This document shows positions 20,635 through 62,269 of a stretch of DNA of 64,000 nucleotides, one piece after another. A program made the translations under genes and the position numbers. Origin of the DNA: Squalus acanthias. Lineage: Eukaryota. The notes under the pieces are model-generated. The model was not told the origin of the DNA. It did no database searches and worked only from the letters and a program-made list of their open reading frames with translations. The DNA lies in contig CM059431.1 in assembly GCA_030390025.1 (NCBI GenBank), forward strand, positions 134,170,001-134,234,000, in the 5' to 3' direction. The stretch's first letter is position 1. Each line of letters opens with the position of its first letter.

Positions 20635-20666
<32 letters not shown>

Positions 20667-20841
20667 TCAGCAGCAGCACCAAGGTGGGAGGGAGACCCAC
20701 AATGTTGCAACTGCAAGGGCCGTCCGTCAACGGCTGATAACAAGCCGCTTCTCGGCCCCTACTGAGGAAATGGCTTCTGGCATGGAGAACAACATGAATG
20801 AAAGCAACCCACAACCCCAAAGCCGGCCAAGGCAGCAATGA
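19600..20841 (+). CDS. Harbinger (HARBI1-like) DDE transposase; frame open, probable start ATG now TTG
   Basis: GAIDCTRV, NRKGFHSLNVQLVCD, YPGSSHDAF, LLGDKGY, RNIIEQTIGVLKQRF and CCMLHN motifs with an acidic tail. The MITE at 30023-30887 has ATGGGGGCT at the homologous position. Confidence 0.85.
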
Positions 20842-21060
20842 TTCCAAAGGCCAAACCTGTACATTTTGAATACAAAAACTTTTTTATTTTACACTCTGTG
20901 TGTGTCATTTCTTTATGACAAATTAATAGAAACAAACACAAAAAATAATTCATTAACATTACTGGTTCTCACAACCTGGAGATAATGTCCAAAGCACTAA
21001 ACAAAAGTTTGAACACGAACCTCGGCCTTTAATAAAAAATTTAACATTTCGTCACACCTC

Positions 21061-22849
21061 CTACTTTTTGCCCTTCGAGGGTGATCGCCTTCCCTTACGC
21101 ACTTCCCCCCTTCCCATCCTATTGCTTCTCCATAATGGAGCCCCAGTGGCTGCAGCAAGGCTGTTGGAAGGCTGCTCACTGTCAGAACCTGAGACTACAG
21201 ATGCCCTTGAAGGACGGCCTTGACCAGCTCTGGGCCTGGAGGGCCCGGCTGCAGACTGCACCAACTATGCATGGGCGGTAGCAGTCTGGGCTACAGGCGG
21301 TGGCAAGTGCAATGGGGAAGTGACAGTGGTGGCAGCAGGAATGCTGTCATCTTGAGAGAGGACAGCAACTCCCTGCTCAACCGACACACTGGCACTCCCA
21401 CGGGGCAGCACCTCAGCATCCGGAGCAATCTGCTGCAGCACAGATTGCTGGTCTGCTGCGGCGCGGAGAGCGCCCCGGGGAAATGTGTCCGAACCAGCGA
21501 CAATGGCAGCAGTCAGTGCTTGCGTGACCACAATCTGAGTCTGCATGAGACCAGTCTGAGATTGGATCACGGCAGCCAGTGACTGAATTGCAGCACTAAG
21601 CATTAGCGTGGCATCCACCTGTGCTACAGCAAAGTGCTCCACACTCCTTGCCAGTGCATCAATGCATTCGGGCACCCTTCCCACTGCACCCATGAGCTCA
21701 GTGTGCATGTCCACCGCCTGGGTGTTCATTTCAGTGCAGCAGGACTTGCTGGCCTACTCTCCCTCCGGGGAAAAGGCCCCCGAGCTTACCTCGCCACATC
21801 GCGTTGCTGCAGCCCGCTGGGTCCCGGAGCTTCACCCTCATCAGACCCTTTCCCCCTGCTCCCCTCCAGGGAAGATGTGGTGCCAGTGTGGGCATGGGCT
21901 TCCTCGGGAGAGGGTGGCGCTGAAGCTCCGGCTTCCTCTTCCTCCTCGCCTGCGGCTTCACTCCCATTGGCAGCTTCAGGGCCCGTCTCCTCAGCTGGTG
22001 AATCACCATCTGAAAGCAGGGAGGTACAAGAGTGGCTTTAGCGTGAGGACAGGGGGGCAGTAATGGAGGAATGAGTGGAGCGATTTAGTAAGTTGGATTG
22101 AAAGTGTAAAAGGCTGGTGTTGTGAGGGACAAGTGGAATGAGAGAGGAGAGAAAGCTGATGACCTTACCATTGCTGTCCCGAACAGGGTCGGCCTCTCCA
22201 GCGGCGACGGAACCGATCACCTGGCTTGCCACAATCCTGTGGACGCGCGCCTCAAGATCGCTGAGGGGTTGCAGCTGAGGCCGCCCTCCACCTGTCCATT
22301 GCTGCTGTCTCCTATTATGAGACAGCTTGGCCTGCAAGAAAAAGGACGGCGTCTGAATAAATATACAGCCATGGTCTTGCCAGATGTGCCTCCCATAATT
22401 GAATAGCCCTTAATGTATGCAGCCATGTGCTTGCCTGATGTGCCTCCCATAGTTGAATAGCCCTTACTGTATGCAAGGTGTGGAATGTGCGTGTGCGTTT
22501 CATGAGAGGGCCATAGGTGTTGGATGAGTGTTGGGCATTGGGGTTTTAAGACCCGCTGGCCATAGAGTGAGGTTGAGATGGAGGGATGGAGAGATATTGA
22601 AAAAAAGCCACTCACACTGACGACCCGAGTGAGGTCGTTGAACTTTTTGCGACATTGAGTATGGGTCCGGGGCACCATGCTCCTGGAGGAGACGTGCTGA
22701 GCCACCTCCCTCCACACTCTTCTGTAGTCGCGCGGCAAAGGCCTCCTGCCATTCTCAGGGAAGAGTATAGATCTGTGCTCCACCACGCCAACCAGAGCCT
22801 CCAAGGCCCGCTCGCTGAAGCGCTGAGCTCGTTCTCTCACCCTCTCCAT
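21061..22849 (-). pseudogene. Spliced Myb/SANT-like DNA-binding partner gene of the Harbinger; exon 3 disrupted
   Basis: Exon 1 22849-22616 (RFSERALEALV..W.EVA..V..R...QCRKKFNDL, gtgagt donor); exon 2 22331-22169 (TGGG motif, gtaagg donor); exon 3 from 22009 with TAA at 21786-21788 and a frame change before the 21729-21265 ORF. Confidence 0.8.
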
Positions 22850-24166
22850 AGTCCTTGGCTGGAAAATGTAATCACAGGTCTCTCCCGGTCGAGATTCAAG
22901 GCTCCAATGAGCAGTGTGCGGCTGGAGAGCAAGATCGACTCTCCCCTTTAAGAACTGGCCAGCGCCAGTGTGTCTGTGTTCCATCGCTAACTGACAGCAC
23001 CTGCGCTGCGCCCGCGCTCTGAGTTAGGGCCTCGCTCCTCGGCCTTTGCGCCTTCAGACAGGTGTGCAGTGCCTAATTTAGCGCTCCAATCAGCTCCAGG
23101 GGCGATAGAAGCCAAGTTTGCAGTCGGAGGCGATAATTAGTGCTAGGCGCTAAACTTTGCGCCCGGCCGATAATTGCGCCCCAAGCGGGGCGATACCGAA
23201 TTTCTCCCCATTGTACCAGAAAACTATTTTGAATGCACTCAAGAAATTCACTACTTTTCTGACTTTAGCTACTCTGTTCTTCCCAATCTATATGAAAATT
23301 AAAGTCTTTCATTAAAACAACTCTGCTTTTGCTATAAGCCTCTCTAATCTATGAATTAATACATTCTGCCACTTCATTGTTGCTATCAGGAGGCCTGTAG
23401 ACAACTCCCATTATAGTTTTAAGTCCTCTCTTATTCCTCAATTCTAACCATAGAGTCTCTGTTGATTGCTTTCCTATGTTGCAGTATCATGGACAGGTGT
23501 GGCTTGAATGACAAGTCAAATAATTGGTTGAATTTGAATTCAATTAACTGGTACAACTTTATGCACTACCTTCTTCTACAGACACCATTTTGCAGAATAA
23601 ATTCATTTGCTTAGGTAAGCACTTTTAACTAAGTGCTGAGCAAAAAAAGTCAAGATCACTTCATAGAAAAAAGAAAAATCTGTTTTCAAGAATCACATAG
23701 TGAATTAACAATTTCCAAATCAGGGATTCCCACATATCATTCAAAATGTATGCCACTGTCACATATATCCTACCAGGTTACACTAATAATATTTCCCTGA
23801 TGATATCAAATATCCATCATTTAATGGATACAAGTTCTGGAAAGTTTAAACCACGATATTCTCTTCTCTCTCTCTGTCTCTGTCTCCCCAAACACACACA
23901 CACAAACAGGAAAAATATTTTTAAACATTGATTTCTCATTTCTCTAGGGATGGGCAATAAATGCTGGCCTTGCCAGCGACGCCCAGATCCCATAAGCGAA
24001 TACAAAAAATATATTTTTTGTTTTAAAACAGCAGTTGCCCAATGATTCAAAATAAATTGTCTATGAAATGTGGTTATCCATTCATAATGAACAACTATGT
24101 CAGAAAGATTGCTCGGAGCAACAATGCAATCAGGATTAGGAAGGTCATTTTATTTCCATAACTACC

Positions 24167-36740: not shown

Positions 36741-37349
36741 TTTTTTAGCCAGTACATAGCAAGCCGAACAAGAGAGGAGGCGGTTCAGGACTTAGTTTTA
36801 GGGAATCAAGATGGGCAGACCAAAGGGGTATCAGTGAGAGACCATTTTGGTGGTAGCGATTATAATTCAGTTAGATTTAGCGCAGTTATGGAAAAGGATG
36901 AAGATAGATCAGGAGTAAAAGTTCTCAATCGGGGAAAGGCCAATAATACTAAGCTGAGATGTGATTTAGCAAAAGTGGACTGGAAACAGTTACTTGAAGT
37001 TAAATCAGTGTCAGAGCAGTGGGAGGCATTCAAGCAGGAGATGGTGAGGGTTCAGACTAAGTATGTTCCCACAAAGAAAAATGGTGGGACTCCCAAATCT
37101 AGAGCCCCCTGCAGGTCAAGGAGCATACGGGGTAGGCTAAGGCAAAAAAAGGAAGCTTATGGCAGCTACCAAGCGCTAAATGCTGCAGAAAGCCTAGAGG
37201 AGTATAGAAAGTGCAGGGGTGAAATTAAAAAGGAAATTAGGAAAGGAAATAGAGGGCATGAAAAAAGATTGGCAAGTAAAATCAAGGAAAACCCAAAGAT
37301 GTATTACAAATACATAAAGAGCAAGAGGATAACTAAAGAAAGAGTAGGG

Positions 37350-40300
37350 TGTGGCGGATCGCCACCTAAACGGGCATTATCCACTTTTCCGTCCGTGGAC
37401 AAATATCGAGCACCTTCCCTTTAAGGCACCTTACCTTTAAGGCAGGAGTGGGTGGGGCCTCAGGATTTTTCAGAGAATTCTAAGAGCAGTCGGTTCAGCC
37501 ATTTTGTACCATGCAGTTATTAAAAAAGTCTCTTGTTTTCCACACATGGATTCAGCCTTAATTCGTGTTTCGCGGCAGCCTCAACATTGGTGACCCCGAC
37601 GCTCAGAACGTATTCCGAGCACTGCAATGGCGGACACGAACGCAGTTTCCGTGAAACTGCCGGAGTTTTGGGAAAACCAGCCCGAAGCCTGGTTTCTCCA
37701 AGCTGAATCTCGCTTCCGGCTGCGAAACATCACCACAGATGGGACGAAGTACGACTATCTCGTCACATCACTCGGTAGTGCCGCAGTTTCGAAGGTTTGG
37801 ACAGCGCTGCAGAACCCACCAGAGGAAGGCAAGTACGCACATCTCAAGACAGCGCTCCTTAAAAAATTTACGGCCTCGGCATATCAGCGAAACTGCCACC
37901 TCCTCGACCTTCCAGGCCTCGGTGACGCCTCACCGTCAGACCTCCTCTCCCACATGCTCTCCCTCACCGACGAGAGCCCACCCGGATCCCTCTTCCGCAC
38001 GCTGTTCAACCGCCAGCTCCCTCTCAGCATCCGCCCAGCGATCGTGGCGTCCGGCCTCACGAACCTGGAAGCCCTGGCCGATGAGGCCGACAAGCTGCTG
38101 TCCGCTCACTCCAGCCGCGACGTCACTCCGGACCTGGCAGCCAATGCCTGGGCGCGCGCCTCACCGGCCACCACGCGGCCACAAGGGCCTGCCACCAGGC
38201 CCACGGGGCCTTCACGCCCCACTAACCTGGGCCACTGCTACTACCACGCACGGTTCGGCGCCAGGGCACAACGGTGCACACCTCCCTGCTCTTTCAAGTT
38301 CGCCCCCGTACCAGCCCCCGCGATGGCCGTGGGCCACGCGGGCTCCCTGCTGTTCGTCACGGATGACAAAACCGGCCGCCGGTTCCTGTGCGACACTGGG
38401 GCTCAGCACAGCATCATCCCTCCCTCGACATCCAAAAGGGCGAACGAGGACCGGCGCTGGCTGCTGCTAACAGCTCGGAAATCTGGATGTATGGCACCCG
38501 GACAGTCACCCTCGACCTCGCTGGTCGCCGCTACCGATGGGAGTTCATCACTGCCAAGGTGCTCTCCCCTCTCATCGGCGCAGATTTCCTGTGCGCCCAC
38601 GGCCTACTGGTAGACATCCCCCGTCACCGCCTCGTGGACGTGAACACCATGTCCCCCATCCTGGGCGTCATGGCCCCCCGTCAACCCGCCGACATGGCGT
38701 CACAGTGCCACGCCCGGGCCACGGATGACTACTCGGCACTCCTGGACGAATTCCCGGCCCTTACCAATCCGACCTTCTCCGCGGAGGCCGCCAAACACGG
38801 GGTGGAACACTTCATCCCCAGCACAGGCCCCCCAGTGTACGCCCACACCCGCAGGCTGGACCCGACCAAACTGGAGATCGCGCGGACCAAGTTTGCCACC
38901 ATGGAACAGCTCGGCATCATCCGCCGCTCCAACAGTCCCTGGGCCTCCCCACTCCACATCGCCCCCAAACCAGGCGGAGGATGGCGCCCCTGCAGGGATT
39001 ACCGGCGCTTCAACGACGCCAACACCCATGATTGGTACCCCGTGCCGCACATTCAGGACTTCACGGCTAGACTGGCCGGCCGCTCAGTCTTTTCCACGGT
39101 CGACCTGGTGCGCGGCTACCACCAAGTCCCCGTCCACCCCGCGGACGTCCCCAAGACGGCTGTAATCACCCCCTTCGGCCTGTTCAAGTTCCTGCGGATG
39201 CCCTTCGGCCTCAAAAACGCGGCCCAGGCATTCCAACGGCTCATGGACTCGGTCCTTCGGGACCTGAAGTTCCTGTTCGTCTACCTGGATGACATCCTGG
39301 TAGCCAGTTCCTCCAAGCAAGAACACCTCGAACACCTTTGCATCCTGTTCGGGCGCCTCAGCGACCACGGGTTCATCCTCAGCCCAGCCAAATGCCAGTG
39401 CGGCCTGGACAAGATCGACTTCCTCGGCCACCACATCACCCATGCTGGGGCCATTCCCCTGCCCACCAAGGTGCAGGCCGTCCAACAATTTCCCCGCCCC
39501 ACCACCATCAAAGGCCTCCAGGAGTTCCTCGGGATGGTGAATTTCTTCATCCCCAAAGCGGCGTCCCTCATGAGGCCCCTGTATGAAGCCCTCCGGGGCA
39601 GGAGCGGCAAGATGGCGGTCGAATGGACGGCAGACGCGTCCGCCACCTTTGATTCCACCAAGACCGCGCTCGCCAACGCCACCCTGCTCGCGCACCCACG
39701 GCCCAATGCCAGGGTAGCGCTCACCACGGACGCCTCCGACCACGCGGTCGGCGCCGTGTATGAGCAGTGGGTCGACGGCGCCTGGCAACCACTTGCCTTC
39801 TTCAGCCGCCAACTACGCCCCCCAGAGGTCAAGTACAGCACCTTCGACCGCGAGCTCCTCGCGCTGTTCCTGGCGGTCCGCCATTTCCAGTTTTTGCTTG
39901 AAGGCCACCCCTTCACTGCGTTTGTCGACCACAAGCCCCTGACATTCGCAATGGCAAAGACAACCGACCCCTGGTCCACCAGGCAGCAGCGCCAGCTCAC
40001 GGCAGTGTCCGAGTTCACCACGGACATCCAACACGTCTCCGGCCGAGACAATGTGGTAGCCGACTGCCTCTCCCGCCCCGCCATCTACGCCGCACACCTG
40101 GCAGTCGACTACGCTCAACTCGCAGCAGACCAGATCACCGACCCTGATCTGCTCTCCGCACCCACCAACCTACCAGGGCTACGCCTGGCCGACGTCGCCT
40201 GTGGCCCGACCGCAGTCATGGTCAAGTGCGACATATCCCTATGTCAACCTCGGTTCGTCGTCCCAGCGTCCTGGCGCCGCCGGGTATTCGACATTTTCCA

Positions 40301-41675
40301 CAACCTCTCCCACCCCGGCGCCCGCACATCCATCAAATTGGTAGCCAACCGCTTTGTCTGGCGCGGCCTTCACAAGGATGTGCGTACTTGGGCCAACTCC
40401 TGCCTAGCCTGCCAACGGGCCAAGGTACAGCAACACACGAAAGCACCCCTCGAGGAGTTTACCGTCCCCTCGCGGAGATTCGACCACATCCACGTGGACA
40501 TCGTCGGGCCCCTGCCGCCGTCACAAGGCCACACGCACTTGCTGACCATCGTTGACCGCACCACGCGCTGGCCCGAGGCAATTCCACTGACCTCTACCAC
40601 CACCGCCGACATCGCCAGAGCCTTCGTCAGCACCTGGGTCGCACGGTTCGGCGTCCCCTCCGACATGACGTCGGACAGAGGTCCGCAATTTACCTCTGAA
40701 CTCTGGACCGCCGTCGCACGCAATCTCTAGGTGACCATTCACCGCACAACAGCATACCACCCCCAAACCAACGGACTGTGTGAGCGGTTCCACAGATCCT
40801 TGAAGGCATTTCTTCGAGCCAGCCTCCAGGACGGCGCCTGGACCGACCGACTTCCGTGGGTCCTCCTCGGCCTGCGCACCGCGGTTAAAGAAGACCTCCA
40901 TGCATCGGCAGCAGAGCTCGTGTACGGTCAGCCGCTGCGCGTACCCGGCGAGTTCCTGCCCACCGCCACGACACCCTGGTCAGCCGACCAGCAACGCCAC
41001 GACTTCGCCTCACCGACGCTGCAGTTCGCCCCGGTGCCCATTGCCCGACACAGCGAATCCACCTCACACATCCCACTAAGCCTGCACCAGGCACGGTTTG
41101 TTTTCGTCCGGAACGACGCCCACCGCGGACCCCTTCAACCCCTGTACGACAGGCCCTACAAGGTGCTACAGGCTGGGGACAAATTTTTCACCCTGCAAGT
41201 GGGCGACAGGACCGAAAAAGTGTCGGTTGACCGACTCAAGCCAGCACACTCGGAGCCCGGTGAGCAGGTCCCTGTAGCTCATCCACGCGGCCGACCTGCC
41301 CTCAAGCCGGTTCACCCGGCTGCTCCACGCCCGGCCGTTCCACGTCCACCGGCGTCCTACAAGAGCCGCTCCGGCCGGCCCATCAGACCGCCGCACCGTC
41401 TCGTCCACACCTCCTAAGTGGATTCTGGGGGGAGCTGTGTGGCGGATCGCCACCTAAACGGGCATTATCCACTTTTCAGTCCAGGGACAAATATCGAGCA
41501 CCTTCCCTTTAAGGCACCTTACCTTTAAGGCAGGAGTGGGCGGGGCCTCAGGATTTTTCCAGAGAATTCTGGGAGCAGTCTGTTCAGCCATTTTGTACCA
41601 TGCAGTTATTAAAAAAGTCTCTTGTTTTCCACACATGGATTCAGCTTTAATTTGTGTTTCGCGGTAGCCTCAACA
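37350..41675 (+). mobile_element. Full-length Ty3/Gypsy LTR retrotransposon, CsRn1-like
   Basis: LTRs 37350-37586 and 41438-41675 (TG..CA; about 10 substitutions and 1 indel by eye); 4-bp TSD AGGG; PBS TGGTGACCCCGACG at 37588-37601 (tRNA-Trp); G-run PPT before the 3' LTR; Gag CYYHARFGARAQRCTPPC motif. Confidence 0.95.
37627..41417 (+). pseudogene. gag-pol (PR, RT, RNase H, IN) of the CsRn1-like Gypsy, disrupted
   Basis: CDTGA protease, YLDD, TDAS, HPG..C..C, DIVGP, SDRG and ERFH motifs. Frameshift inside the protease (about 38420-38430) and TAG at 40728-40730. Confidence 0.9.
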
Positions 41676-42517: not shown

Positions 42518-45396
42518 CAGGAAGATGGCTTGAAGTGTGTCTACTTCAATGCAAGGAGCATCCGGAATAAGGTAGGAGAACTTGGAGCGTAGATTGGTAC
42601 TTGGGACTACGATGTGGTGGCCATTACGGAGACATGGTTAGAACAGGGACAGGAATGGTTGTTGGAAGTTCCGGGGTATAGATGTTTCAGTAAGAGTAGG
42701 GAAGTTGGTAAGAAAGGTGGAGGAGTAGCATTGTTAATCAAGGATAGTTTAACAGCGGCAGAAAGGCAGTTTGAGGGGGATCTGCCGTCTGAGGTAATAT
42801 GGGCTGAAGTTAGAAATAGGAAAGGAGCGGTCACGTTGTTAGGAGTTTTCTTCAGGCCCCCAAATAGTAATAAAAATGTGGAGGAAGAAATTGCAAAGCA
42901 GATTATGAATAGGTGTGGAGGTCACAGAGTAGTTGTCATGGGTGACTTCAACTTTCCAAATATTGATTGGAACCTTTATAGGTCAAACAGTTCGGATGGG
43001 ATAGTTTTTGCACAGTGTGTGCAGGAGGGTTTCCTGACACAATATGTGGATAGGCCGACAAGAGGTGGGGCCACGTTGGATTTGGTACTGGGTAATGAAC
43101 CGGGCCAAGTGTTTGATTTGTATGTGGGAGAGCACTTTGGAGATAGTGACCACAATTCGGTAACTTTCACTATTGCAATGGAGAGGGATAGGGCCATACG
43201 GCAGGGTAGGGTTTATAATTGGGGGAGGGGTAATTATGATGCGATTAGGCAAGAATTAGGGAGTATAAGATGGGAACAGAAACTATCAGGGAAAGGCACA
43301 AACGAAAAGTGGAGCTTTTTCATGGAGCAATTACTGCGTGTCCTTGATAGGTATGTCCCTGTCAGGCAGGGAGGAAATGGCCGAGTGAGAGAACCATGGT
43401 TCACAAAAGAGGTTGAATGTCTAGTCAAGAGGAAAAAAGAAGCGTATGTAAGGATGAGAAAACAAGGTTCAGTTGGGTCGATTGAGGGGTACAAGGTAGC
43501 AAGGAATGAGCTAAAAAAAGAGCTTAGGAGAGCTAGGAGGGGGCATGAGAAGTCCTTGGCGGGTCGGATCAAGAAAAACCCCAAGGCTTTTTACTCTTAT
43601 GTGAGAAATAAAAGAATGACCAGGGTGAGGGTAGGGCCGTTCAAGGACAGTAGTGGGAACTTGTGCATGGAGTCAGAAGAGATAGGAGAGGTGATGAATG
43701 AATACTTTTCGTCAGTGTTCACCGAGGAGAGGGGCCATGTTCTTGAGGATGAGAGTGTGATAAAGGTGGATAGGCTGGAGGTGGTAGATGTTCTGAGGGA
43801 AGATGTTTTAGCAATTTTGAAGAACCTGAGGGTCGATAAGTCCCCTGGGCCAGATGGGATATATCCTAGGATTCTTTGGGAGGCAAGGGAGCAGATTGCA
43901 GAGCCTCTGGCTTTGATCTTTGGGTCCTCACTGTCCACGGGGATGGTGCCAGAGGACTGGAGAGTGGCGAATGTTGTTCCTCTCTTCAAGAAAGGAAATA
44001 GGAATGACCCTGGTAATTATAGGCCGGTTAGTCTTACTTCGGTGGTTGGTAAGATAATGGAAAAGGTCCTGAGGGATAGGATTTATGACCATTTGGAAAG
44101 GGGCAACTTAATCAGGGATAGTCAACACGGATTCGTGAAGGGTAAGTCTTGCCTAACAAATTTGATTGAATTCTTTGAGGAGGTAACTAAGTGTGTGGAT
44201 GAAGGTAGAGCAGTTGATGTCGTATACATGGATTTTAGTAAGGCGTTTGATAAGGTTCCCCATGGTCGTCTCATGAAGAAAGTAAGGAGTTGTGGGATAG
44301 AGGGAAATTTGGCAGATTGGATAAGTAACTGGCTATCTCATAGAAGGCAGAGGGTGGTGGTGGATGGAACATTTTCGGACTGGAGACCAGTTACCAGCGG
44401 TGTGCCACAGGGGTCGGTGCTGGGTCCTCTGCTGTTTGTGATTTTTATCAATGACTTGGAGGAGGGGACTGAAGGGTGGATCAGTAAATTTGCTGATGAC
44501 ACCAAGATTGGTGGAGTAGTGGATGAGGTGGAGGGCAGTTGTAGGCTGCAAAGAGACATTGATAGGATGCAGAGCTGGGCCGAAAAATGGCAGATGGAAT
44601 TTAACCCTGATAAGTGCGAGGTGATTCATTTTGGTAGGGCAAATTTGAATAAGGATTACAGGGTCAACGGCAGGGTTCTGAGGAACGTGGAGGAGCAGAG
44701 GGATCTGGGGGTTCATATCCACAGATCTCTGAAGGTTGCCACTCAAGTGGATAGAGCAGTAAAGAAGGCCTATGGTGTGTTGGCGTTTATTAACAGAGGG
44801 TTTGAGTTTAAGAACCGTGAGGTTATGCTGCAACTGTACAGGACCTTGGTGAGACCACATTTGGAATATTGTGTGCAGTTCTGGTCACCTCACTATAGGA
44901 AGGATGTGGAAGCATTGGAAAGAGTGCAAAGGAGATTTACCAGGATGCTGCCTGGTTTGGGGGGGAGGTCTTATGAGGAAAGATTGAGGGAGTTGGGGCT
45001 TTTCTCTTTAGAGCGGAGGAGGATGAGAGGCGACTTAATAGAGGTTTATAAGATGATGAGGGGGATAGATAGAGTGGATGTTCAGAGACTATTTCCTCGG
45101 GTAGAGGCAGCTGTTACAAGGGGGCATAACTATAAGGTGCATGGGGGGAGATATAGAAGGGATGTCTGAGGTAGATTCTTTACTCAGAGAGTGGTTGGGG
45201 TGTGGAATGGACTGCCTGCTGTGATAGTGGAGTCGGACACTTTAGGAACTTTCAAGCGGTTATTGGATAAGCACATGGAGCACACCAGAGTGATAGGGAG
45301 TGTGATAGCTTGATCTTGGTCTCGGACAATGCTCGGCACAACATCGAGGGCCGAAGGGCCTGTACTGTGCTGTACTGTTCTATGTTCTATGTTCTA
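42518..45396 (+). mobile_element. Young CR1 LINE with an almost complete ORF2 (APE endonuclease + RT)
   Basis: 851-aa open frame 42614-45169 (ITETW, GDFN, SDH, PQGSVLGP, FADD), bounded by single premature stops (TAG about 42590, TGA 45167); (ttctatg)n tail. Confidence 0.93.
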
Positions 45397-46225
45397 TGAT
45401 ACAAAAATTGGCCTTGTGGTTGATAGTAAGGAAGAAAGCTGCAGACTGCAGGAAGATATCAATGGACTAGTCAGGTGCGCAGAAAAGTGGCAAATGGAAT
45501 TCAATCCAGAGAAGTGTGAGGTAATGCATATGGGGAGCGTTAATGAGGCAAGGGAATACACAATAAATGGTAGGATACTTAGAAGAGTAGAGGAATAGAC
45601 GGACCTTGGAGTGCATGTCCACAGATCCCTGAAGGTAGCAGGACAGGTAGATATGATGGTTAAGAAGGCATACGGGATTATTTTCCTTTATTCGCCAAGG
45701 CATAGAATATAAGAGCAAGGAGGTTATGCTTGAACTGTGTAAAACATTAGTTAGGCTACAGCTAGAGTACTGTGTACAGTTCTGATCACCTCATTGCAGG
45801 AAAGATGTGATTGCACTAGAGAGGGTATTGAGGAGATTTACAAGGTTGTTGCCAGGCTTGGAGAATTTTAGCTGTGAGGAAAGATTGGATAGGCTGGGGT
45901 TGTTTTCTTTGGAACAGAGGAGGCTGAGGGGAGACCTAACTGAGGTGTATAAAATTATGAGGTGTCTGGATAGAATGGATAGGAAGGACCTATTTTCCCT
46001 AGCAGAGAGGTCAATAACCAGGAGGCATAGATTTAAAGTAATTGGTAGAAGGATTAGAGGGGAGTTGAGGAGAACTTTTTTCACCCAGAGGGTGGTGGGG
46101 GTCTGGAACTGACCCTGAAAAGGTGGTTGAGCCAGAAACGCTCATCACACTTAAAAAGTATTTGGATAAGCACTTGAAGTGCCGTAACCTACAAGACTAT
46201 GGACCAAGAGCTGGATAGTGGGATT

Positions 46226-47130
46226 AGGCTAACTCCTCAAACTCCCTCAGCAGAACCTCATTCTTAGTTCTACCCATATCGTTGGTTCCTATGTGGACCA
46301 CGACAACTGGATCATCCCTCTCCCACTCCAAGTTCTTCTCCAGCCATGAGAAGATATCCTTAACCCTGGCACCAGGCAGGCAACACAGCCTTTGGGACGC
46401 CAGCTCACGACTGCAGAGAACAGTATCTAACCCCTGACTATACTGTCCCCTACCACGACTATATTCCTTATTACTCCCCCAACTTGAATGGCCCCCCTGT
46501 ACCACAGTGCCGTGATCAGTTTGTCCATTCTCCCTGCAGTCCTTGTTCTCAACTACACAGGCAGCGAGTACCTCATACCTGTTGCACAAGGTCAAGGGCT
46601 GAGGCTTCTCCATCACTACATCCTGGGTCCCCATACCTTCCTGACTTGCAGTCACACCCTCCTGTCCCTGACTACTGACTAACTCTAAAGTACTACTTAA
46701 CCTAAGGGACATGACTGCCTCCCGGAACAAAGTACCCAGATAACTCTCCCCCTCCCTGATGCATCGCAATGTCTCCAGCTCAACAACTCTGAGCCGAAGT
46801 TCCTTGAGTTGCAGACACTTACCGCTGATGTGGTTGTCTGGGATATCACTGGTCTCCACAAACTCCCACATGCTGCAGTTACGATATACCACCTGCCCTG
46901 CCATCTCTACATAACATTATTTTATTTCTTTAATTAGTTAAAGTTTTTATTCAATTGATTATTTTTAGTTTTAATTTGTTAATCTAGTTTAAGTTATTAA
47001 TTTAATGAAGTAATAGCAGTTATTGTTTTACCAGCTCTTAATTTAACCCACTACCCTAACATAGAGAGCAAAAAAAGCTGTAATACTCAGCAACCAATCA
47101 CCTACCTGCTGCCTTGTGACGTCACTCCTT
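46226..47130 (-). mobile_element. CR1 5' fragment: 5'UTR and ORF1 (zinc finger/leucine zipper + SGNH esterase-like domain)
   Basis: ORF 46224-46904 with CSMWE..KCLQLKELRLRV, CLPGARVKDI and VVVHIGTND; homologous to 27623-28030. Confidence 0.82.
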
Positions 47131-50445: not shown

Positions 50446-51295
50446 TACGACCATACTACATTATCACTCCTTGTCCTCTCTGCAACCTTTGACATGGTCA
50501 ATCACCCCATCCTCCTCCAATGCCTCTCTTCCATTCAGTGCCTTTGCTTCGTTCCACTTTTACCTATCCAATCATAGCCAGCGCATATCCATCAATGGCT
50601 CCTCTTCCCACCCCCTGCACTGTTACCTCCGGGGTCCCCCTCAGATTTATCCTTGGTCCCCTCCTCGTCATCATCTATATGCTGCCACTTGGCAACATTA
50701 TCCGAAAACATGGGGTCAGCTTCCACATTTACACTCACAACACATAGCTTTATCTTTTAACCAGCTCTCTCAACCCCTCCACTGTCCGTGTTGTCAGACA
50801 GGTTGTTTGACATTCAGTCTTGGATGAGCTGAAATTTCTCCCAGCAAAACATTGGGAAAATCAAAACCATCGTTTTTGCCCCCCACCACACGTTCCATAC
50901 CCTTGCCACCGACTCCATCCCATTCCCTGGCCACTATTATCTCAGGCTGAATCCGACTGCTCATAACCTCGGTGTCCTATTCAACCCCAACCCAATATCC
51001 TCTCCATCACCTAAATCATGTAATTCCAAGTAACATCGTGTCGTAAGAATGAGCCTTACGCGTGGTGAACTTAAAGTAAGCTTTAATCAACTAAAAAGGT
51101 GCTACATACAAAAGAGGTCTTACTCTATGCCTCTCCAGGATCCAACTGATCAGTCCAGTATTTATCCTGGACTGATCACAGGAAGTGATGCAATAAAGTT
51201 CGAGTCACAGGAAGCTGTATTGTGTTACCACATTCTCCCCCCCCAAAAGATTAGGAGGCCAGGAAGAAGTTCGAGTCACAGGAAGCTGTATTGTG

Positions 51296-54200
51296 TTACC
51301 ACATTCTCCCTCCATTTCGTAGCCGCTGGACGAGGGAGAGCCGCACCCGTTTGGGTTCTCGTAGCGGTAGAGGGCCCCTAGCCCATTTACCCGCCGCGGG
51401 CCATGGACCAGAGTCCGAGTGATCCAGCCCGCTCTGTGAGGGGTCAGGACGATCCTGACTGTGTACTGGTGCCCGTACGGGTGTCGGGCAGGGCTGTGGC
51501 AGATCCGTTTCCGAGCGTACGGTACGGGGTGGATCGTGGCTGCGCGTGCGAGCCCCGACGGGCTCATAGTCAGTCTGCCCCAGGTCGGCACGCTGGAGTG
51601 AGGTACCAGCCGGCGTCAGATCCAGATCGTGATGAGAGGCACCTGGCGAGCCCAGAGATGTGCCTGGTACAATATCATCCCCTGGTGTCCCTCTATGTTT
51701 CGGCGGGCAGGGAGCCAGATCCTGCAATGACACAGTAGATTCCCGACCGTCAGGATACCGAATATAGGCGTAGGTAGGGTTGACGTCAGTGAGCTCAACC
51801 TCATCTACCAGGGGGTCATTCTTAGACGCCCGGACATATCTTCGGAGTAGCACTGGTCCCGGTGCAGTCAGCCACGACGGGAGAGATATCCCATAGGATG
51901 AGCGACGCTGAAATCGGAAGAACCGTTCATGAGGCGTCGTATTTGTGGCGGTCGAAAGGAGGGACCGTGTGGAGTGTAATGCGTCTGGAAGTACTGCTTC
52001 CCATTGCTGGTTGGGTAGGCCCCGAGATCTCAAAGCCAGACGTACCGCATTCCAGATGATAGCGTTAAAACGCTCGACTTGCCCATTCCCGACCGGGTGA
52101 TAAGGCGTCGTTTTGCTGGCAGCAATACCCCGTTCCGAGAGATAGGCCTTGAGTTCTCCTGACATAAAAGAAGGGCCCCGATCCGAATGAACATAGGATG
52201 CCATGCCACAGAAAGCAAATACCTGCTCAAGGCAGCTGATAACCGTGGTCGTCAGCATATTGGGGCAGGGAAAGGCAAACGGAAAACGGGAATACTCATC
52301 GACCATGGTCAATAGATAAGTGTTGCGAGTTGAAGAGGGCAACGGCCCCTTAAAATCGATGCTAAGCCGTTGCATTGGCTGGGTCGCATGTATGAGTATA
52401 CCACCCGAGGGGCGGAAAAACCGAGGTTTCAATTCCGCACAGACTCTGCAGTCCGAGCACATCTTCTTTACATCCCCGGTAGAGAATGGGAGATTTCGGG
52501 ACCGCACGAAGTGTAGCATGCGAGTAACGCCCGGATGACACAACCCATCATGGATGTCTACGAGCGTAGAGGGTGCCATGGCGGAGCAGAATGCTCGTGT
52601 GAGGGTATCCGGAGCCACATTCTCCTTGCCAGGTCAATAGTGGATGGTGTAACCAAAAGAGGCCAATTCCAGCCGCCAAAGCTGGATTTTATTATTTTTA
52701 ATTTTGGTCCGTTTTCGATTATCGAGCATGAAGGCGACCGATCGCTGGTCCGTGATTAAGGTAAAGTGCTGGCGAGCTAGGAGATGACTCCACTTCCGTA
52801 CTGCCTCTATGATGGCTGTAGCTTCTTTCTCGACTGGAGGATAATGTAGCTCAGCCCCTTGAAAAGTCCTGGACAAAAATGCCACCGGACGACCTTCCTG
52901 ATTCAGAGTGGCCGAGATCGCCACCTCCGAGGCATCACACTCAACGACAAAAGGAAGACTCTCATCGATGGAGTGAAGAGTCGCTTTCTTCAACAGTTTT
53001 TTCAGGAGGTTAAAGGCTGCAACAGCCGCTGTGTCTAGTGGGAATGTGCTGGCCTTCAGTAGAGGTTGGATTCGGTCCGAGAAGTTAGGAATCCATTTAG
53101 CATAGTATGCAAACAGGCCGAGGGCCCGGCGCAAGGAGGCCGGATTCTTAGGTGGCGGGAGTTCTTGGAGTGGGCGAAGCCTTTCAGGGTCAGGTTTAAT
53201 GATGCCATTGCCCACACAATAGCCAAGGATGTTGATGGTTGGTTGTGACTCAATGGATTTAGCCGCATTTAATGTCAAATTACGGTGCTGGAGTGCGTCC
53301 CAAAATCGTTGGAGATTGGCGTCATGTTCCCGCTGATTGCGACCTGCGACAGTAATATTGTCCAGATAAGGAAACGTATCCTTCAAGTCTTCCTGTTTGA
53401 CCAGGTCATCCATTGCTCGCTGGAAGACAGCCACTCCATTAGTGACCCCAAAGGGGAGGCGACGAAATTGATACAGCCGTCCATTGGCTTCAAAGGCCGT
53501 ATACTGCTTGTCTGAGACCTTCAAGGGTACCTGATGATAGGCACTTTTTAGATCATATGTTGAGAACACCGTGTACTCAGCCAATTTATTAAGCATATCA
53601 TCGATGCGCGGCAATGGGTATGCGTCCAAGTCCGTATATTGATTGATGGTCTGTGAATAGTCAATGCACAGCCGTTTCTTGTGAGGTTGTTTTGGAGTCC
53701 ATTATTAAGGAAACAGTAACAAGACATTTGGATAATCATAATTTAATAGGACAAAGTCAGCATGGTTTTACGAAGGGGAAGTCATGTTTGACAAATTTGC
53801 TGGAGTTCTTTGAGGAAGTAACATATAGAGTGGATAAAGGGGAACCAGTGGACGTAGTGTATTTAGACTTCCAAAAGGCATTTGACAAGGTGCCACACAA
53901 AAGATTATTGCTTAAGGTAAAAAATCACGGGATTGGGGGTAATATTCTGGCATGGATAGAGGATTGGCTATCTAACAGAAAGCAAAGAGTTGGGATAAAT
54001 GGTTCATTCTCAGACTGGCAATCAGTAACTAGTGGTGTTCCACAGGGGTCAGTGCTGGGTCCCCAACTCTTCACAATCTATATTAACGATTTGGAGGAAG
54101 GGACCAAGTGTAACATATCAAAATTTGCAGATGATACAAAGATGGGAGGGAAAGTAGTGAGTGAGGAGGACATTAAAAACCTGCAAGGGGACATAGACAG

Positions 54201-56750
54201 GCTAAGTAAGTGGGCAGAGATTTGGCAGATGGAATACAGCACTGGAAAGTGTGAGGTGATGCACTTTGGCAGGAAAAATCCTAGAGCAATTTATTATCTT
54301 AATGGCAAGAAACTGGAGAGTACTGAAGTGCAAAGGGATCTGGGGGTCCTGGTGCACGAAACTCAAAAGGTTAGTATGCAGGTGCAGCAAGTGATTAAGA
54401 AGGCAAATGGAATGTTGGCTTTCATTGCTAGGGGGATAGAATATAAAAATAGGGAGGTATTGCTTCAGTTGTACAAGGTATTGGTGAGACCGCACCTGGA
54501 ATACTGCATACAGTTTTGGTGTCCTTACTTAAGGAAAGACATCCTTGCTCTCGAGGCAGTGCAAAAAAGGTTCACTCGGTTAATCCCGGAGATGAGGGGG
54601 TGGTCATATGAGGAGAGGTTGGGTAGATTGGGACTCTACTCATTGGAGTTCAGAAGAATGAGAGGCGATCTTATTGAAACATATAAGATTGTGAAGGGGT
54701 TGGATCGGGTGGATGCGGGGAGGATGTTCCCGATGACGGGTGAGACGAGAACTAGGGGACATAGTCTTAGAATAAGGGGCTGCTCTTTCAAAACTGAGAT
54801 GAGGAGGAACTACTTCACTCAGAGGGTGGTAGGTCCATGGAATATGCTGCCACAAAAAGCTGTAGAAGCTACAACATTAATTAAATTTAAAACAGAAATA
54901 GACAGTTTCCTAGAAGTAAAGGGCATTAAGGGTTACGGGGAACGGGCAGGAATTTGGACATGAGTCTAGGTTCGGATCGGTCATGGCCCTGTGGGTAGTG
55001 GAGCGGGCCCAGGGACTGTGTAGCCTGATTCTGCTCCTATTTCGTGTGTGCAATTCTGTTAGATGCAGGAGATGTTTCTGTGATAGATAGTAGATTGGCG
55101 GTTAGGATCAGATCAGCCATGATCTTATTGAATGGCGGAGCAGGCTCGATGGGCCGATTGGCCTACTCCTGCTCCTATTTCTTATGTTCTTATGTTCTTA
55201 TGTTGTAGAGGGTTCTTAACAATAACGACCTGGGCGCGCCATGGCGACGAACAAGGCTCGATGATATCCTCTGCTAAAAGCCGAGAAATCTCAGCCGCAA
55301 TAAAAGACTGGTCTTCCTGACTGAAACGTCGTGACTTTGTTTTAATCGGTTTGCATCGAGGAGGGATACTGGAAAACAGTGAGGGTTCATCCAGTGAAGC
55401 TGCTGACAATGCACAGAACGGTAATCGAGGTAGTATATTAGAAATAGTGAGTTCAGGTTTGGATCCGCCGAACTCAATGGTGAGCTTCTTATGCTGCTTT
55501 TGAAAATCCAGCCCTAAGATAAGATCACTACATAAGTCCTTGAGCACCGAAAGCTGGGTGGAGGGATACCTGCGACCATTAAGTGTTATTTCAACCATAC
55601 AAAAGCCAGAAATTCTGGTATTAAGTGATGACTGAGCCATCGCAACTGCCTGGTCCGATGGGAAAACATGTAGCTTTAACTCTGCAACAATCTGTTCCCT
55701 AATGAAACTATCAGTGCTACCTGAGTCAATTAAGGCATCTAAAGTATGTCCATTAATTGATGCTTTTGTAGCTGCATGGAATAGGTTCTGAGGACAAGCA
55801 GCTGTAATTGGTGTCGTTGCACAAAGAGTGGCTGAAACTCTAGGTGTGTTTCTTCGAGAGGAAGCACGATAGATTTTAGCCGGAACATCTTGATAGGCCC
55901 TTACCGGGGCAGTTCGGTAGGACTTAGCTTGATAAGCCCTCGTAGAGGCTCTTGATAGGCAAACCTTTGCAAAATGACCCTTTTTGTTGCAATGACTGCA
56001 AAACGCATTGCGAGCAGGGCAGAATTTCCGAGGGTGGAACTCATCACCACAAAAGAAGCATTTCTTAGATTGCCAAGAGGCTGCCACAGTGGGGTCATCA
56101 TCCTCTTCATCAGTGAAGTCATCAGATTGATCGTCAGGGATAAAGACCTCCCTAATAGAGTTCACCTGTGGCCTCTTAAATTGCCTGACTGTAGTTAAGG
56201 CAGTTGACCGAGGTCTGGGCACTGTATAAAGGTCTGCATTTCTTTTTGCCAGATCTAGAGAGCAAGCCATGTCATAAGCTTTCTGAAGCTCAAGTGTCTT
56301 ACTTTCCAGTAGACGCTGGCGTATAAATGGGGAGGCAAGCCCGCAGATGAAAGCATCACGGATCATTTCTTCACAGTACAGCTCAGCTGAGGCCGCCCGA
56401 AAGTTACAGTCCATACTAAGTCTGCGAAGCTCTTGGAGGAATTTATCAATGGATTCCTCCGGCCCTTGTTGGGCTGTAGCTAGTAGATGTCTGGCATAGA
56501 CCTCATTCGTTGTCTTAGTATATAGTCTCTTAAGCGTCCGAATTGCCTCCTCGTAACTGTCCCATTTCTCCACATACTGAAATACATTCGGGGTGACACA
56601 GTTGATGAGTATCCGCAACTTTGAGTTATCATCAGCCTTACAATATTCAAGAAAATTGTCAAACGTGCGATACCAGTGTTTCCACACCTTACCGGCTGCT
56701 GGGGTGTTTGGGTCCAAGTCAAGACGCGATGGTTTAAGGATGTTTTCCAT
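51296..56750 (-). pseudogene. Single-frame gag-pol of the second Gypsy, split by CR1 (53681-55194) and one TGA (52634-52636)
   Basis: Two Cys/His knuckles, LIDSGS protease, KNPLQHK|KRLCIDY rejoined across the insertion, YLDN, ECDAS, HDGLCHPG..C..C, IDFKGP, SDRG and VERFN. Confidence 0.9.
53681..55194 (+). mobile_element. Very young 5'-truncated CR1 LINE, RT frame uninterrupted
   Basis: Open frame to the natural stop at 54963; (ttcttatg)n tail; TTCTT on both sides (53676-53680, 55195-55199). Confidence 0.93.
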
Positions 56751-57379
56751 GATGGGTGATTCCCTGGATCCTTAGTTCCGAGTTCGTCCAAAAAGTTTGA
56801 GTGCGAAGTTTCCCAACGTTGATTAAATTGTCGTAAGAATGAGCCTTACGCGTGGTGAACTTAAAGTAAGCTTTAATCAACTAAAAAGGTGCTACATACA
56901 AAAGAGGTCTTACTCTATGCCTCTCCAGGATCCAACTGATCAGTCCAGTATTTATCCTGGACTGATCACAGGAAGTGATGCAATAAAGTTCGAGTCACAG
57001 GAAGCTGTATTGTGTTACCACACATCGCTTGCCTTCACTCCCAGCTCAGCCCATTTGTTGCTGAAGCCATCATCACCTCCAGACTCGACCATTAGAATGC
57101 TATCCTGGCTGGCCTCCTATTCTCCACCATCCGTAAACTTCAGCTCATCCAAACACTCTGCAGCCTGTATCCTATTCTGCACCAAGTCCCACTCAACCAT
57201 TATCCCATCTCGCGCTGACCTACGTTGGCTCCCGGTTTCCCAACATTTCCCATTTAAAATTCTCATTCTCTTATTTAAATTCCTTCATGGCCTCGTCCCT
57301 TTCTACCTCTGTAACCTCCTCTGGCCCTAAAACCTGCTCCCTAACTCTCTGTTCTTCTGTCTCTGACTTCTTGTGCCAT

Positions 57380-59673: not shown

Positions 59674-59759
59674 TTGGGTTATAATAAACTTGAATAAAAA
59701 GGAACAAACCTATATTTGTGCTTTTCATTTCTCAGGCGCTGAACATTATATATCTGTGG

Positions 59760-61480
59760 GGAGAAGTAACGTAAAGGGGAATCAAGGGATACGGAGATCA
59801 GGCGGGAAAGTGGAGTTGATGTCGATGATCAGCCATGATCTTATTGAATGGCGGAGCAGGCTCGAGGGGCCGTATGGCCTACTCCTGCTCTTATTTCTTA
59901 TGTTCTTAAAGATCATTACAAGTTGCACAGACTAGGCTTATATTCCCTTGAATACAGAGGATTATCTAATTGAGGTGTTAAAGATGATTAAAGGGTTTGA
60001 TAGAGTAGATCGAGAGAAACTATTTCATCTGGTGGGAGAGTCCAGAACAAGGGGGCATAACCTTAAACTAAGAGCAAGACCATTCAGGGGTGATGTCAGA
60101 AAGCTCTTCTTCGCACAAAGGGTAGTGGAAATCTGAAACTCTCTCCCCACCAAAAAGCTGTTGAGGGTAGGTCAATTGAAAATTTCAAAACTGTCTATTT
60201 TCAAAAGGCATTTGATAAGGTGCCACACAAGAGGTTGTTACACAAGGGCTAACGGAGGTAATATATTAGCTTGGATTGAGGATTGGTTAACGGACAGAAA
60301 ATAGAGAGTAGGAATAAACGGGTCATTTTTGGCTTGGCAGGTTGTAACTAGTGGGGTGCCGCAAGGATCAGTGCTTGGGCCTCAGCTATTTACAATCTAT
60401 ATCAGGGGACCAAGTGTAATGTATCCAAGTTTGCTGACAATATAAAGCTAGGTGGGAAAGTAAGCTGTGAGGAGGATGCAAAGAGGCTGCAAAGGGATAC
60501 AGACAGGGTAAGTGAGTGGGCAAGAAGGTGGCAGATGAAGTATAATGTGGGGAAGTGTGAAATTATCCACTTTGGTAGGAAGAATGGCAAAGCAGAATAT
60601 TTTTTAAAAGGTGAGCAATTAGTAAATGTTGGTATGTAGAGGGATTTGGGTGTCCTTATACACAAGTCACAGAAAGTTAACATGCAGGTACAGCAATTAG
60701 GAAGGCAAATGGCATATTGGCCTTTATTGCAAGTGGGTTGGAGTACAAGAGTAAGGAAGTCTTTTGCAATTATATAGGACTTTGGTGAGACCACACCTGG
60801 AGTACTTTGTATAGTTTTAGTCTCCTTACCTAAGCAAGGATTTACTTGCCTTAGAGGGGGTGCAACAAAGGTTCACTAGATTGATTCCTGGGATGAGAAT
60901 TTTGTCCTATGAGGAGAGATTGAGTAGAATGGGCCTATATTCTCTGGAGTTTGGAAGAATGAGAGGTGATCTCATTGAAATGTATAACATTCTTGGAAGG
61001 CTTGACAAGGTAGATGCTGAGAGGCGGTTTCCTCTGGCTGGGGAGTCTAGAACTAACAGTCATAGTCTCAGGATAAGGGGTTGGCCAGTAAGATGAGGAG
61101 AAATTTTTTCAGAGGGTTGTGAATCTTTGGAATTCTCTACCCCAGAGGGTTGTAGATGCTCAGTCATTGAGTATATTCAAGCCTGAGAGCGATAGATTTT
61201 TGGACACTAAGGGAATCAAGGGATATGGGGATAGGGTGGGAAAGTGGAGTTGAGGTACAAGATTAGCCATGATCTGATTGAATGGCAGAGCAGGATCGAG
61301 AGACCATATGGCCTATTCCTGCTCCTATTTCTTATATTCTTATGAGATTGTCTATTTTTGTTAGACAAGGGTTTTGAGGGTTACGGAACCAAGGCGGGCC
61401 GATGGAGTTAAGATACAGATCAACCATGATCTAATTGAATAGCGGAATAGGCTCGAGGGGCTGAATGGCCTGTTCCCATG
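59760..61480 (+). mobile_element. Cluster of CR1 3' fragments; about 60194-61343 is nested in another copy
   Basis: Three CR1 tails; host continuity aaaactg|agattg. Confidence 0.8.
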
Positions 61481-62269
61481 TTTCAAAGTTAGGCATCCCT
61501 ACCATTTCTTTAGGTGGGAGCGACGGCTGTTCTTAAGACTGACAGTATTCCATTCCCTTTCAGAAAGAGGTCAATGCTGTTGATTCCCCAAAATCTTCTG
61601 GAAGATCATTTAAAGGTCCTTCCATGCCGATAGCTCACCAGAGGAACCAATAGAGCCTGTACTGATCAGGAGGGAGTTGGAACGTCTTCTTGCCAGAAAC
61701 ATAGAGACTGATTTGAATTAGGAACATAGGAGACAATAAAGCTGTTTTGTGGCTTATGAGTTGTAGAAGAGACAGGGAAAGAGGGCTATTTCAGTGTTGC
61801 ACTTCAGAGAGTGCTTGTGCTTCTGATCTGACAGAGATCAATCAAGAATTTAAGAGCTTCCATGTTGTAATTTGTAAGTTTGAGAAAGTGTTTCAACCGA
61901 CCAAGAGAGGAGCCAGTATTTCAGAAATGACTGTCCTCCATCAGCCATTATACCTCTTTTCCAATACTCCTGATGTGGATACGCCTGGCTACTTTTAAAA
62001 GTCTTGATTATCTTAATTTCTGTGGTATGGCAAACACTCCCAGATCTTTTTTCTTTTGGCTATTGATTGATCTACTATACATTTACAGCATTTTCTGTTT
62101 TAATTTCTGATATACAGCATTTACAGTTTTTCTTGTTATCGACTCGGATTAGGTTTGGGCATCTATAATTTCCAACAGAATGTATGGCTTCTCATTTCTC
62201 GACTCTCATTCCTAAGCAGTTCAAATGCACTCCATTGTTGAGTGGCAACATACCTCTAAGGGTCATGCT

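What the first reader, a model, noticed from the sequence alone, without database searches (positions are those of the whole stretch)
56818..56881. Gypsy element with no tRNA PBS: the PBS position is complementary to its own LTR
Seen: just after the 5' LTR the sense (minus) strand reads a-TTTAATCAAC (56827-56818) rather than TGG.., and this is the exact complement of GTTGATTAAA inside the LTR (56881-56872), which includes the ATTAAA poly(A)-type signal. Known: Tf1/sushi-group elements self-prime by pairing the PBS with their own RNA 5' end. Inference: this element, in which I see no chromodomain, may prime without tRNA and/or hide its 5' poly(A) signal in a stem that only the 5' LTR can form. 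The partner lies about 70 nt after the TATA-like box, which does not fit the simple Tf1 model, so the mechanism could differ.
Basis: partly seen in the sequence, partly recalled or inferred. Interest (0 to 1): 0.8.

Follow-up and report, generated by a model that had tools for sequence, protein, structure and literature searches.

The report
Self-priming Gypsy retrotransposon lineage of animals
This jumping gene, and nearly all of its distant relatives that could be checked, lack the usual docking site for a host tRNA and instead carry a site that pairs with their own terminal repeat, so they very probably start copying themselves with a piece of their own RNA, a trick proven so far only in a fission-yeast element.

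Summary
Confirmed, and lineage-wide. The window holds a young Gypsy LTR retrotransposon (identical 194-bp LTRs, no chromodomain). Its PBS pairs with its own LTR over 10 bp here and 11 bp in 28 of 30 genomic copies. Among relatives of 32-50% Gag-protease identity, 26 of 27 testable families pair at least 10 of 11 PBS bases with their own LTR, using 25 different PBS 11-mers; non-cognate combinations reach that in 3%. The helix always starts next to the LTR's terminal CA and ends at an A-rich junction followed by a small hairpin (23 of 27). That register is what a primer needs, so Tf1-like self-priming is the best reading (0.72). The partner usually ends in a poly(A) hexamer, so occlusion is probably a by-product. 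No RNA ends or cDNA were seen; the start site is inferred. The lineage is not nested among the chromoviruses sampled, but a sister relationship is not rejected. It may be the Cigr-1 clade (untested). Ten literature searches found no report for such an animal lineage. This scan noted self-priming before in diatom Copia and fungal and moss Gypsy elements, not in this lineage.

The parts
56829..57022 (-). 5' LTR, 194 bp, TG...CA
   Evidence: 194 of 194 identical to the 3' LTR
56872..56882 (-). predicted self-primer AGTTGATTAAA; its last six bases (56877-56872) are the ATTAAA poly(A) hexamer; A56882 is the predicted RNA start (inferred)
56859..56871 (-). small hairpin H1 starting at the base after the self-primer; predicted cleavage between 56872 and 56871 (inferred)
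   Evidence: fold; at least 4 bp in 23 of 27 families, 6.4 expected
56832..56850 (-). U5 hairpin near the LTR end; present here, not conserved above chance across families
   Evidence: 7 of 27 against 5.2 expected
56817..56827 (-). primer-binding site, after a 1-nt spacer (56828); no TGG; complementary to 56872-56882 (10 bp in this copy, 11 bp in most copies)
56949..56956 (-).
55200..56750 (-). Gag (CCHC knuckle), protease and start of RT; ATG 77 nt after the PBS start
53695..55200 (+). LINE fragment with an RT domain (CR1-like by its tail, recalled) inserted in the RT region in opposite orientation; limits approximate
52637..53695 (-). RT and RNase H; an in-frame stop follows at 52636-52634
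51296..52633 (-). integrase (H2C2, rve), no chromodomain
51267..51305 (-). 39-nt duplicate of the LTR 5' end with its own purine tract, shared by the subfamily
51233..51244 (-). polypurine tract
51039..51232 (-). 3' LTR; same hexamer, no PBS behind it

Best explanation
The element is a young copy of an animal Ty3/Gypsy lineage that primes minus-strand DNA synthesis with the 5' end of its own RNA, as Tf1 does. Transcription starts without a TATA box at or just before the outer end of the helix (here A56882). The first 11-15 or so bases fold forward onto the PBS. A cut at the junction between this helix and the stacked hairpin H1 (AAA|G, 56872/56871), most likely by the element's RNase H, frees a 3' OH one base outside the LTR's terminal CA. 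RT then copies U5 and the rest of R; the remaining R (about 15-25 nt up to the poly(A) site) serves for strand transfer. Because R is so short, the poly(A) hexamer lies inside the primer and is paired only at the 5' LTR. Shown: the complementarity, its fixed register, its covariation, H1, the lack of a TGG PBS and of a chromodomain. Inferred: start site, cleavage, the enzyme that cleaves, the poly(A) site.
For: (1) Covariation: 56 of 62 loci and 26 of 27 families pair at least 10 of PBS bases 1-11 with their own LTR; 25 distinct 11-mers; cognate 94% against non-cognate 3.3%. Pairing beats permutation at positions -4 to -15 (p<0.01). (2) Without any anchor rule, the longest perfect inverted repeat upstream of gag is this helix in 61 of 73 sequences (my reading of the rows). 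(3) Register: in 19 of 31 loci with an LTR-LTR repeat the LTR end could be set from the repeat alone; 16 of the 19 have a 13-19 bp perfect duplex starting 1 nt after the CA, none has TGG. The loop varies from 31 to 71 nt. A primer's 3' end must lie there, since it sets the end of the linear DNA (established knowledge). (4) Fixed inner junction: A at -3 to -1 in 24-26 of 26, then R-C-C-T, and H1 in 23 of 27 against 6.4 expected. (5) One copy (L051) of an otherwise uniform family has the same substitution in both LTRs and the matching one in the PBS, as expected if the PBS is re-copied from the primer. (6) Outer end: G at -10 in 22 of 26, A at -11 in 18 of 26, 81% pyrimidine at -16 to -13 against 57% upstream, a YR dinucleotide at -12 to -10 in 27 of 27 against 75% in control windows. 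(7) Control: the other Gypsy element in the window has a TGG PBS and only a 4-bp self-duplex. (8) Precedent: in Tf1 the first 11 bases pair with the PBS and RNase H cuts between bases 11 and 12 (PMC7175516, passage).
Against: No RNA start, RNA end or primer-tagged cDNA was observed. Pairing at -12 and -13 is strong (23 and 24 of 26; 8.4 and 12.7 expected), upstream of the initiator-like A at -11, so either the start is further upstream or the partner is not the RNA 5' end. In the host family a TATA-like octamer 74 nt upstream is kept between subfamilies. The Tf1 'pretzel' is not supported: loop against PBS-downstream duplexes rank like non-cognate pairs (mean rank 0.48) and the U5 stem is not above chance. 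Six of 62 loci pair 9 or fewer of 11. Five of 32 families could not be tested, among them L035, the closest metagenome locus by Gag, whose 118 nt of leader show no clear LTR end. The L051 double change is a single case, and selection alone could also give it.
Confidence: 0.72

Rival explanations
1. Self-priming with a different geometry: the primer is still LTR sequence, but it comes from an internal site (RNA starting about 40 nt upstream, from the TATA-like octamer) or from the U3-R copy at the 3' end of the same or the partner RNA, cut at the same AAA|G junction.
For: Pairing extends to -13/-15 and in some families to 17-21 bp, beyond the initiator-like A. The 3' LTR copy always contains these bases. 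The GATAAATA hairpin is kept in both host subfamilies. No pretzel.
Against: No TATA conserved across 23 families examined. The initiator-like context sits at the outer end of the helix. Cutting the 3' copy would remove the R needed as strand-transfer acceptor on that molecule (inference).
Confidence: 0.17
2. The helix is selected to hide the 5' poly(A) signal (or to package or dimerise the RNA), and priming is done by something else that binds the same site.
For: AATAAA or ATTAAA ends the partner exactly in 17 of 27 families, and most others are near variants. Only the 5' LTR has a PBS behind it.
Against: Occlusion needs no fixed register at the LTR end, yet the register is fixed while the loop varies 31-71 nt. 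Ten of 27 families lack a canonical hexamer at that exact place. It leaves the primer unexplained: 25 different PBS 11-mers would each need another RNA.
Confidence: 0.07
3. A tRNA half or other host RNA fragment ending in AAA primes, and the LTR match is incidental.
For: Half-tRNA priming exists in Copia lineages (PMC6317226, passage). The host tRNA set was barely sampled: 20 loci, Lys and Cys only.
Against: The PBS tracks the element's own LTR across families, not a fixed host sequence. Best match in the 20 tRNA loci was 7 nt. No Rfam family matches the LTR-PBS region.
Confidence: 0.03
4. Chance complementarity in A/T-rich sequence.
For: The shared TTTA/TAAA end gives non-cognate pairs a mean of 7.6 of 11.
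Against: Cognate mean 10.7 of 11; 11 of 11 in 76% of cognate against 0.4% of non-cognate draws; 7 of 20,000 shuffles.
Confidence: 0.01

Closest known systems
Tf1/Tf2 of Schizosaccharomyces pombe and the Tf1/sushi group of chromoviruses (PMC7175516, PMC10085805, PMC4600332: passages read)
   Same: No tRNA PBS; PBS complementary to an LTR segment upstream; 11-bp duplex in the host family; primer 3' end next to the terminal CA; poly(A) signal close to the LTR 3' end, as noted for Sushi LTRs (PMC3601003, passage).
   Different: No chromodomain, SH3_Tf2-1 or Retrotrans_gag hit in the element or in the 120 + 120 relatives listed. Duplex mostly 13-17 bp. The three-duplex pretzel is not supported; a local hairpin stacks on the primer end instead. 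The poly(A) hexamer forms the primer's 3' end. RT forms its own clade (100/100).
Predicted self-primers elsewhere: Tcn1 clade (Gypsy) and TAR lineage with Houba and Osr-1 (Copia) (PMC6317226, passages)
   Same: Self-priming predicted from PBS-LTR complementarity; shows that the mechanism occurs outside Tf1/sushi.
   Different: Plants and fungi; TAR is Copia. None is an animal Gypsy lineage without chromodomain.
Cigr-1 of Ciona intestinalis and the Cigr-1 clade (PMC6238403 passages and supplement 3; RepeatMasker class Gypsy-Cigr named in a supplement of PMC8556966)
   Same: Recalled from the abstract of Simmen and Bird 2000 (not held): one ORF of about 1,210 codons and 245-bp LTRs, which fits these 3.8-4.4 kb single-ORF elements. 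Five Cigr-1-clade families are listed for Biomphalaria glabrata, where a member of this lineage has many copies.
   Different: No Cigr-1 sequence was available, so identity is untested. The papers seen say nothing about its PBS.
Skipper of dictyostelids (PMC5006619, passages) and fungal GalEa Copia (as cited in PMC6934838)
   Same: Canonical TGG PBS lost.
   Different: Skipper has a polypyrimidine tract with no complement in the LTR and carries a chromodomain; the GalEa hairpin lies within the internal region.

Membership tests
Ty3/Gypsy LTR retrotransposon | two LTRs (TG...CA), target duplication, PPT | tested here: met
Ty3/Gypsy LTR retrotransposon | domain order Gag-PR-RT-RH-IN, Ty3-like RT | tested here: met
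   best solved-structure match is Ty3 RT, E 2e-46
Tf1/sushi group (chromoviruses) | PBS complementary to own LTR, no tRNA PBS | tested here: met
Tf1/sushi group (chromoviruses) | chromodomain at the integrase C-terminus | tested here: not met
   PF00385 in none of the 120 of 239 and 120 of 1454 relatives listed, but in many rows of the chromovirus control search
Tf1/sushi group (chromoviruses) | RT-RH falls within chromoviruses | tested here: inconclusive
   Not nested among 8 chromodomain-bearing rows (each group 100% bootstrap), but a sister relationship is not rejected (p-AU 0.389). Those rows are algal or unnamed; no Tf1 or sushi sequence was in the tree.
Tf1/sushi group (chromoviruses) | three-duplex pretzel structure | tested here: not met
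   mean rank 0.48 for loop against PBS-downstream duplexes; U5 stem 7 of 27 against 5.2 expected
Tf1/sushi group (chromoviruses) | self-primer is the RNA 5' end and is released by RNase H | not testable with these tools
   only assembled contigs were available
Cigr-1 clade / Gypsy-Cigr | RT clusters with Cigr-1 of Ciona intestinalis | not testable with these tools
   no reference sequence in the supplements searched; original paper not held
Cigr-1 clade / Gypsy-Cigr | single ORF of about 1,200 codons, short LTRs (recalled) | tested here: met
   full-length relatives mostly 1,170-1,260 aa; LTRs about 150-230 bp; the comparison values are recalled
CsRN1 or Mag lineages (tRNA-primed) | TGG-type PBS | tested here: not met
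   0 of 19 loci with an independently set LTR end; RT 26-33% identical to the in-window TGG element and to Mag-like L031-L033 (these two clade labels are recalled)

The most novel reading that the evidence does not exclude
An independent, animal-wide invention of tRNA-free priming in which the primer is not the capped 5' end but an internal or 3'-LTR-derived segment ending in the poly(A) signal, cut at a helix-hairpin junction, so that one 11-15 nt element serves as primer, poly(A) signal and template that rewrites the PBS each cycle.
Probability: 0.15. Interest if true: 0.78.

Novelty: new variant of a known kind. Interest (0 to 1): 0.55.

Why it matters
Self-priming is described as a hallmark of Tf1/sushi chromoviruses, with scattered predictions in plant Copia. 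A large lineage without chromodomain, whose proteins occur in cnidarians, molluscs, crustaceans, nematodes and this vertebrate-sized genome, appears to use it with another RNA architecture. This bears on whether hairpin priming is ancestral or repeatedly gained (raised in PMC3601003). It would put hundreds of young copies beyond the reach of tRNA-fragment interference at the PBS (inference). It also means that PBS-based annotation misses the lineage. The 27 families give a ready covariation map of what RT and RNase H must recognise.

Tried and rejected
RNA evidence: no RNA holder listed on record; four runs laid were contigs only and give no start, end or strand; no verdict on expression or start site. 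Contigs L050, L079 and L073 begin at or near the outer end of the helix, which looked like RNA starts; rejected because they include exactly 55, 55 and 77 LTR bases, typical assembly word lengths. The pyrimidine tract plus AG looked like a splice acceptor; rejected because -11 is T or C in 8 of 26 families. Pretzel duplex and U5 stem: not above controls. TATA at -30: no exact match near -30 in 23 families. Host tRNA survey returned only Lys and Cys genes (63 matches, 20 examined), so the comparison with all tRNAs was not done. The tRNA behind the control element's TGG PBS was not found (no match, then copies of the element itself); tRNA-Trp is recalled. Viral collection: 4 distant loci with the Gag alignment, none with RT queries; the repeats of L031-L033 are circular overlaps, so their PBS could not serve as controls. 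A sushi-type Gag family search in the host found nothing and had no working control. The FastTree sister grouping with the in-window TGG element did not hold under IQ-TREE. Clade naming through supplements failed; some supplement files were not searchable (PMC6238403 file 2; PMC8556966 files 11, 13, 14; PMC3670739 file 1) and could bear on the name. Levin 1995, Lin and Levin 1997 and 1998, Esnault and Levin 2015 and Simmen and Bird 2000 were not held; the last could already mention this PBS. Rows left out: 8 of 79 metagenome loci whose match did not reach the Gag start; of the remaining 71 plus L002, 8 had no anchor, 1 was dropped by the anchor filter and 1 had too little LTR.

Full report
Observation. 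The finding lies at the 5' junction of a Ty3/Gypsy LTR retrotransposon on the minus strand, 57022-51039. The two LTRs are 194 bp, start TG, end CA and are identical at 194 of 194 positions; the flanks repeat CGATG. After the 5' LTR come one A and TTTAATCAAC, the complement of GTTGATTAAA at 56881-56872. Shuffled LTRs hold that 10-mer in 7 of 20,000 trials. The coding region has Gag with a zinc knuckle, protease, RT, RNase H and integrase, and no chromodomain. This copy is broken by a LINE fragment in RT (about 53695-55200) and an in-frame stop before the integrase.

The family in its host. The genome has 3.71 billion bases. A search with the LTR-gag junction scored 40 of 1,497 candidates, all about 99% identical. 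Of 30 copies fetched, 28 pair over 11 bp, the window copy over 10, and one has a change at PBS position 1. Contigs of public runs showed a second LTR type; a 30-base marker of it matches 727 times, mostly in pairs 4,237 bases apart. Its three 5' junctions examined pair over 12 bp. So both young subfamilies spread with this PBS.

Relatives. The Gag search found 239 longer proteins, an RT-RH search 1,454; named hosts include corals and anemones, gastropods, crustaceans and the nematodes Trichinella and Trichuris. I could not see the DNA of those named records. The test used 79 metagenome loci of 32-50% Gag-protease identity. Seventy-one reach the Gag start; with one typical host copy they form 32 families at 80% DNA identity. 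With no assumption, the longest perfect inverted repeat in up to 400 bases before gag is the PBS-LTR helix in 61 of 73 sequences. In 19 of the 31 loci with an LTR-LTR repeat the LTR end could be read from the repeat; 16 of them have a 13-19 bp perfect duplex starting one base after the CA, three have shorter ones through point changes, none has TGG. For the rest I used an anchor motif chosen after seeing the data; it is blind to the partner but favours T-rich PBS starts. That gave 62 loci in 27 families; five families were untestable. Of the 62, 45 pair 11 of 11, 11 pair 10, and 6 pair 7-9. Taking the best copy, 26 of 27 families reach at least 10 of 11, with 25 distinct PBS 11-mers. Drawing random members, cognate pairs reach 10 or more in 94% of cases, non-cognate pairs in 3.3%. 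By position, pairing beats permutation from -4 to -15, is uninformative at the invariant A's (-1 to -3), and fades to background from -16. All four pair types occur at several positions. One copy, L051, has the same substitution in both LTRs and the matching one in the PBS.

Anatomy. The inner end is fixed on both sides. On the PBS side it follows a one-base spacer (A in 58 of 62, G in 4). On the LTR side it is AAA followed by R-C-C-T, which opens a small hairpin in 23 of 27 families, 6.4 expected. The loop is 31-71 bases. The last six bases of the partner are AATAAA or ATTAAA in 17 of 27 families. The outer end has a pyrimidine-rich run, then mostly A at -11 and G at -10, which resembles an initiator (consensus recalled); part of this may be plain shared ancestry. 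No TATA box is conserved. The other Gypsy element in the window (37349-41675) has a TGG PBS and a 4-bp best self-duplex.

Mechanism. A minus-strand primer must end next to the terminal CA, because it sets the end of the linear DNA (established knowledge). No TGG site exists there, and the only sequence that tracks the PBS from family to family is the element's own LTR. The simplest model is that of Tf1, where the first 11 bases pair with the PBS and RNase H cuts after base 11 (PMC7175516, passage). Here the predicted primer is 56882-56872 and the cut AAA|G. A leader starting at 56882 folds into this helix with both hairpins, though not more stably than shuffles (z -1.2; z -2.4 for the whole LTR plus leader). 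Copying of the primer during plus-strand synthesis would carry LTR changes into the PBS (recalled for Tf1; inferred here), which fits L051. Two results do not fit neatly. Pairing at -12 and -13 is nearly as strong as in the core, so most primers would be at least 13 bases or the partner is not the 5' end. And the Tf1 pretzel (PMC10085805, passage) is not supported. I give 0.72 to 5'-end self-priming, 0.17 to self-priming from an internal or 3' copy, 0.07 to occlusion as the main role, 0.03 to a host RNA fragment, 0.01 to chance.

Placement. RT-RH of the window element, four tested families and ten protein relatives form one clade (100/100), apart from eight chromodomain-bearing rows (100/98). 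The sister group is unresolved and holding the two together is not rejected (p-AU 0.389). The tree had 40 rows, a single-matrix model and no Tf1 or sushi sequence. So the lineage works like Tf1/sushi but fails two of its tested features (chromodomain, pretzel), and independent origin is open. Size and structure suggest the Cigr-1 clade (recalled); untested.

Literature. Ten searches found no report of self-priming in an animal Gypsy lineage without chromodomain. Seen as passages: PMC3601003, PMC6317226, PMC6934838, PMC6238403 (also supplement 3, parts 2-3), PMC4600332, PMC10085805, PMC7175516, PMC5006619, PMC3670739, PMC8220671. Term searches with nothing useful: PMC2774666, PMC11042837, supplements of PMC8556966 and PMC3670739. 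The primary Tf1 papers, the Cigr-1 paper, Repbase and GyDB were not available, so an earlier remark cannot be excluded. Earlier notes of this scan report the same architecture in diatom Copia and in fungal and moss Gypsy elements; none matched this Gag or an animal lineage.

Verdict. A real, strongly supported, lineage-wide RNA structure; most likely a new variant of a known mechanism in a large group of animal retrotransposons. Interest 0.55.

Noticed in passing
window 51267-51315 (-): A 39-nt duplicate of the LTR 5' end with its own purine tract lies 34 nt before the real PPT; the ORF ends inside it. All 40 scored copies share it; 3 of 3 copies of the second subfamily lack it. Looks like a fixed template-switch product that gives two possible plus-strand start sites.
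   Followed up: partly
window 56941-56968 (-): 12-bp inverted repeat in U3 with GATAAATA in the loop, kept in both host subfamilies with one change in the arm; could be a GATA or TATA element. Role unknown.
   Followed up: partly
window 37349-41675 (+): Second Gypsy element, 238-bp LTRs about 95% identical, DUF7041 Gag, TGG PBS; a junction pattern matches 2,236 times in the genome.
   Followed up: partly
window 19492-23023: DDE_Tnp_4 transposase ORF (+) and a Myb/SANT ORF (-): a Harbinger-like DNA transposon (family name recalled).
   Followed up: no
window 42593-46900, 53695-55200, 59700-61500: Several LINE fragments with endonuclease and RT domains.
   Followed up: no
L134, L135 (G000:C2868, G000:C8): Retroelements whose pol seems to carry a second RNase H before the integrase (read by eye); retrovirus-like.
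   Followed up: no
L035:1-118: Closest metagenome locus by Gag; the contig starts with an AAAGCC motif like the primer junction but has no clear CA-spacer-PBS; truncated or a real exception.
   Followed up: partly
L043 family: Two sub-groups differ at PBS position 14 (19-bp against 13-bp helix), each with several copies, suggesting that position 14 is not required there.
   Followed up: partly
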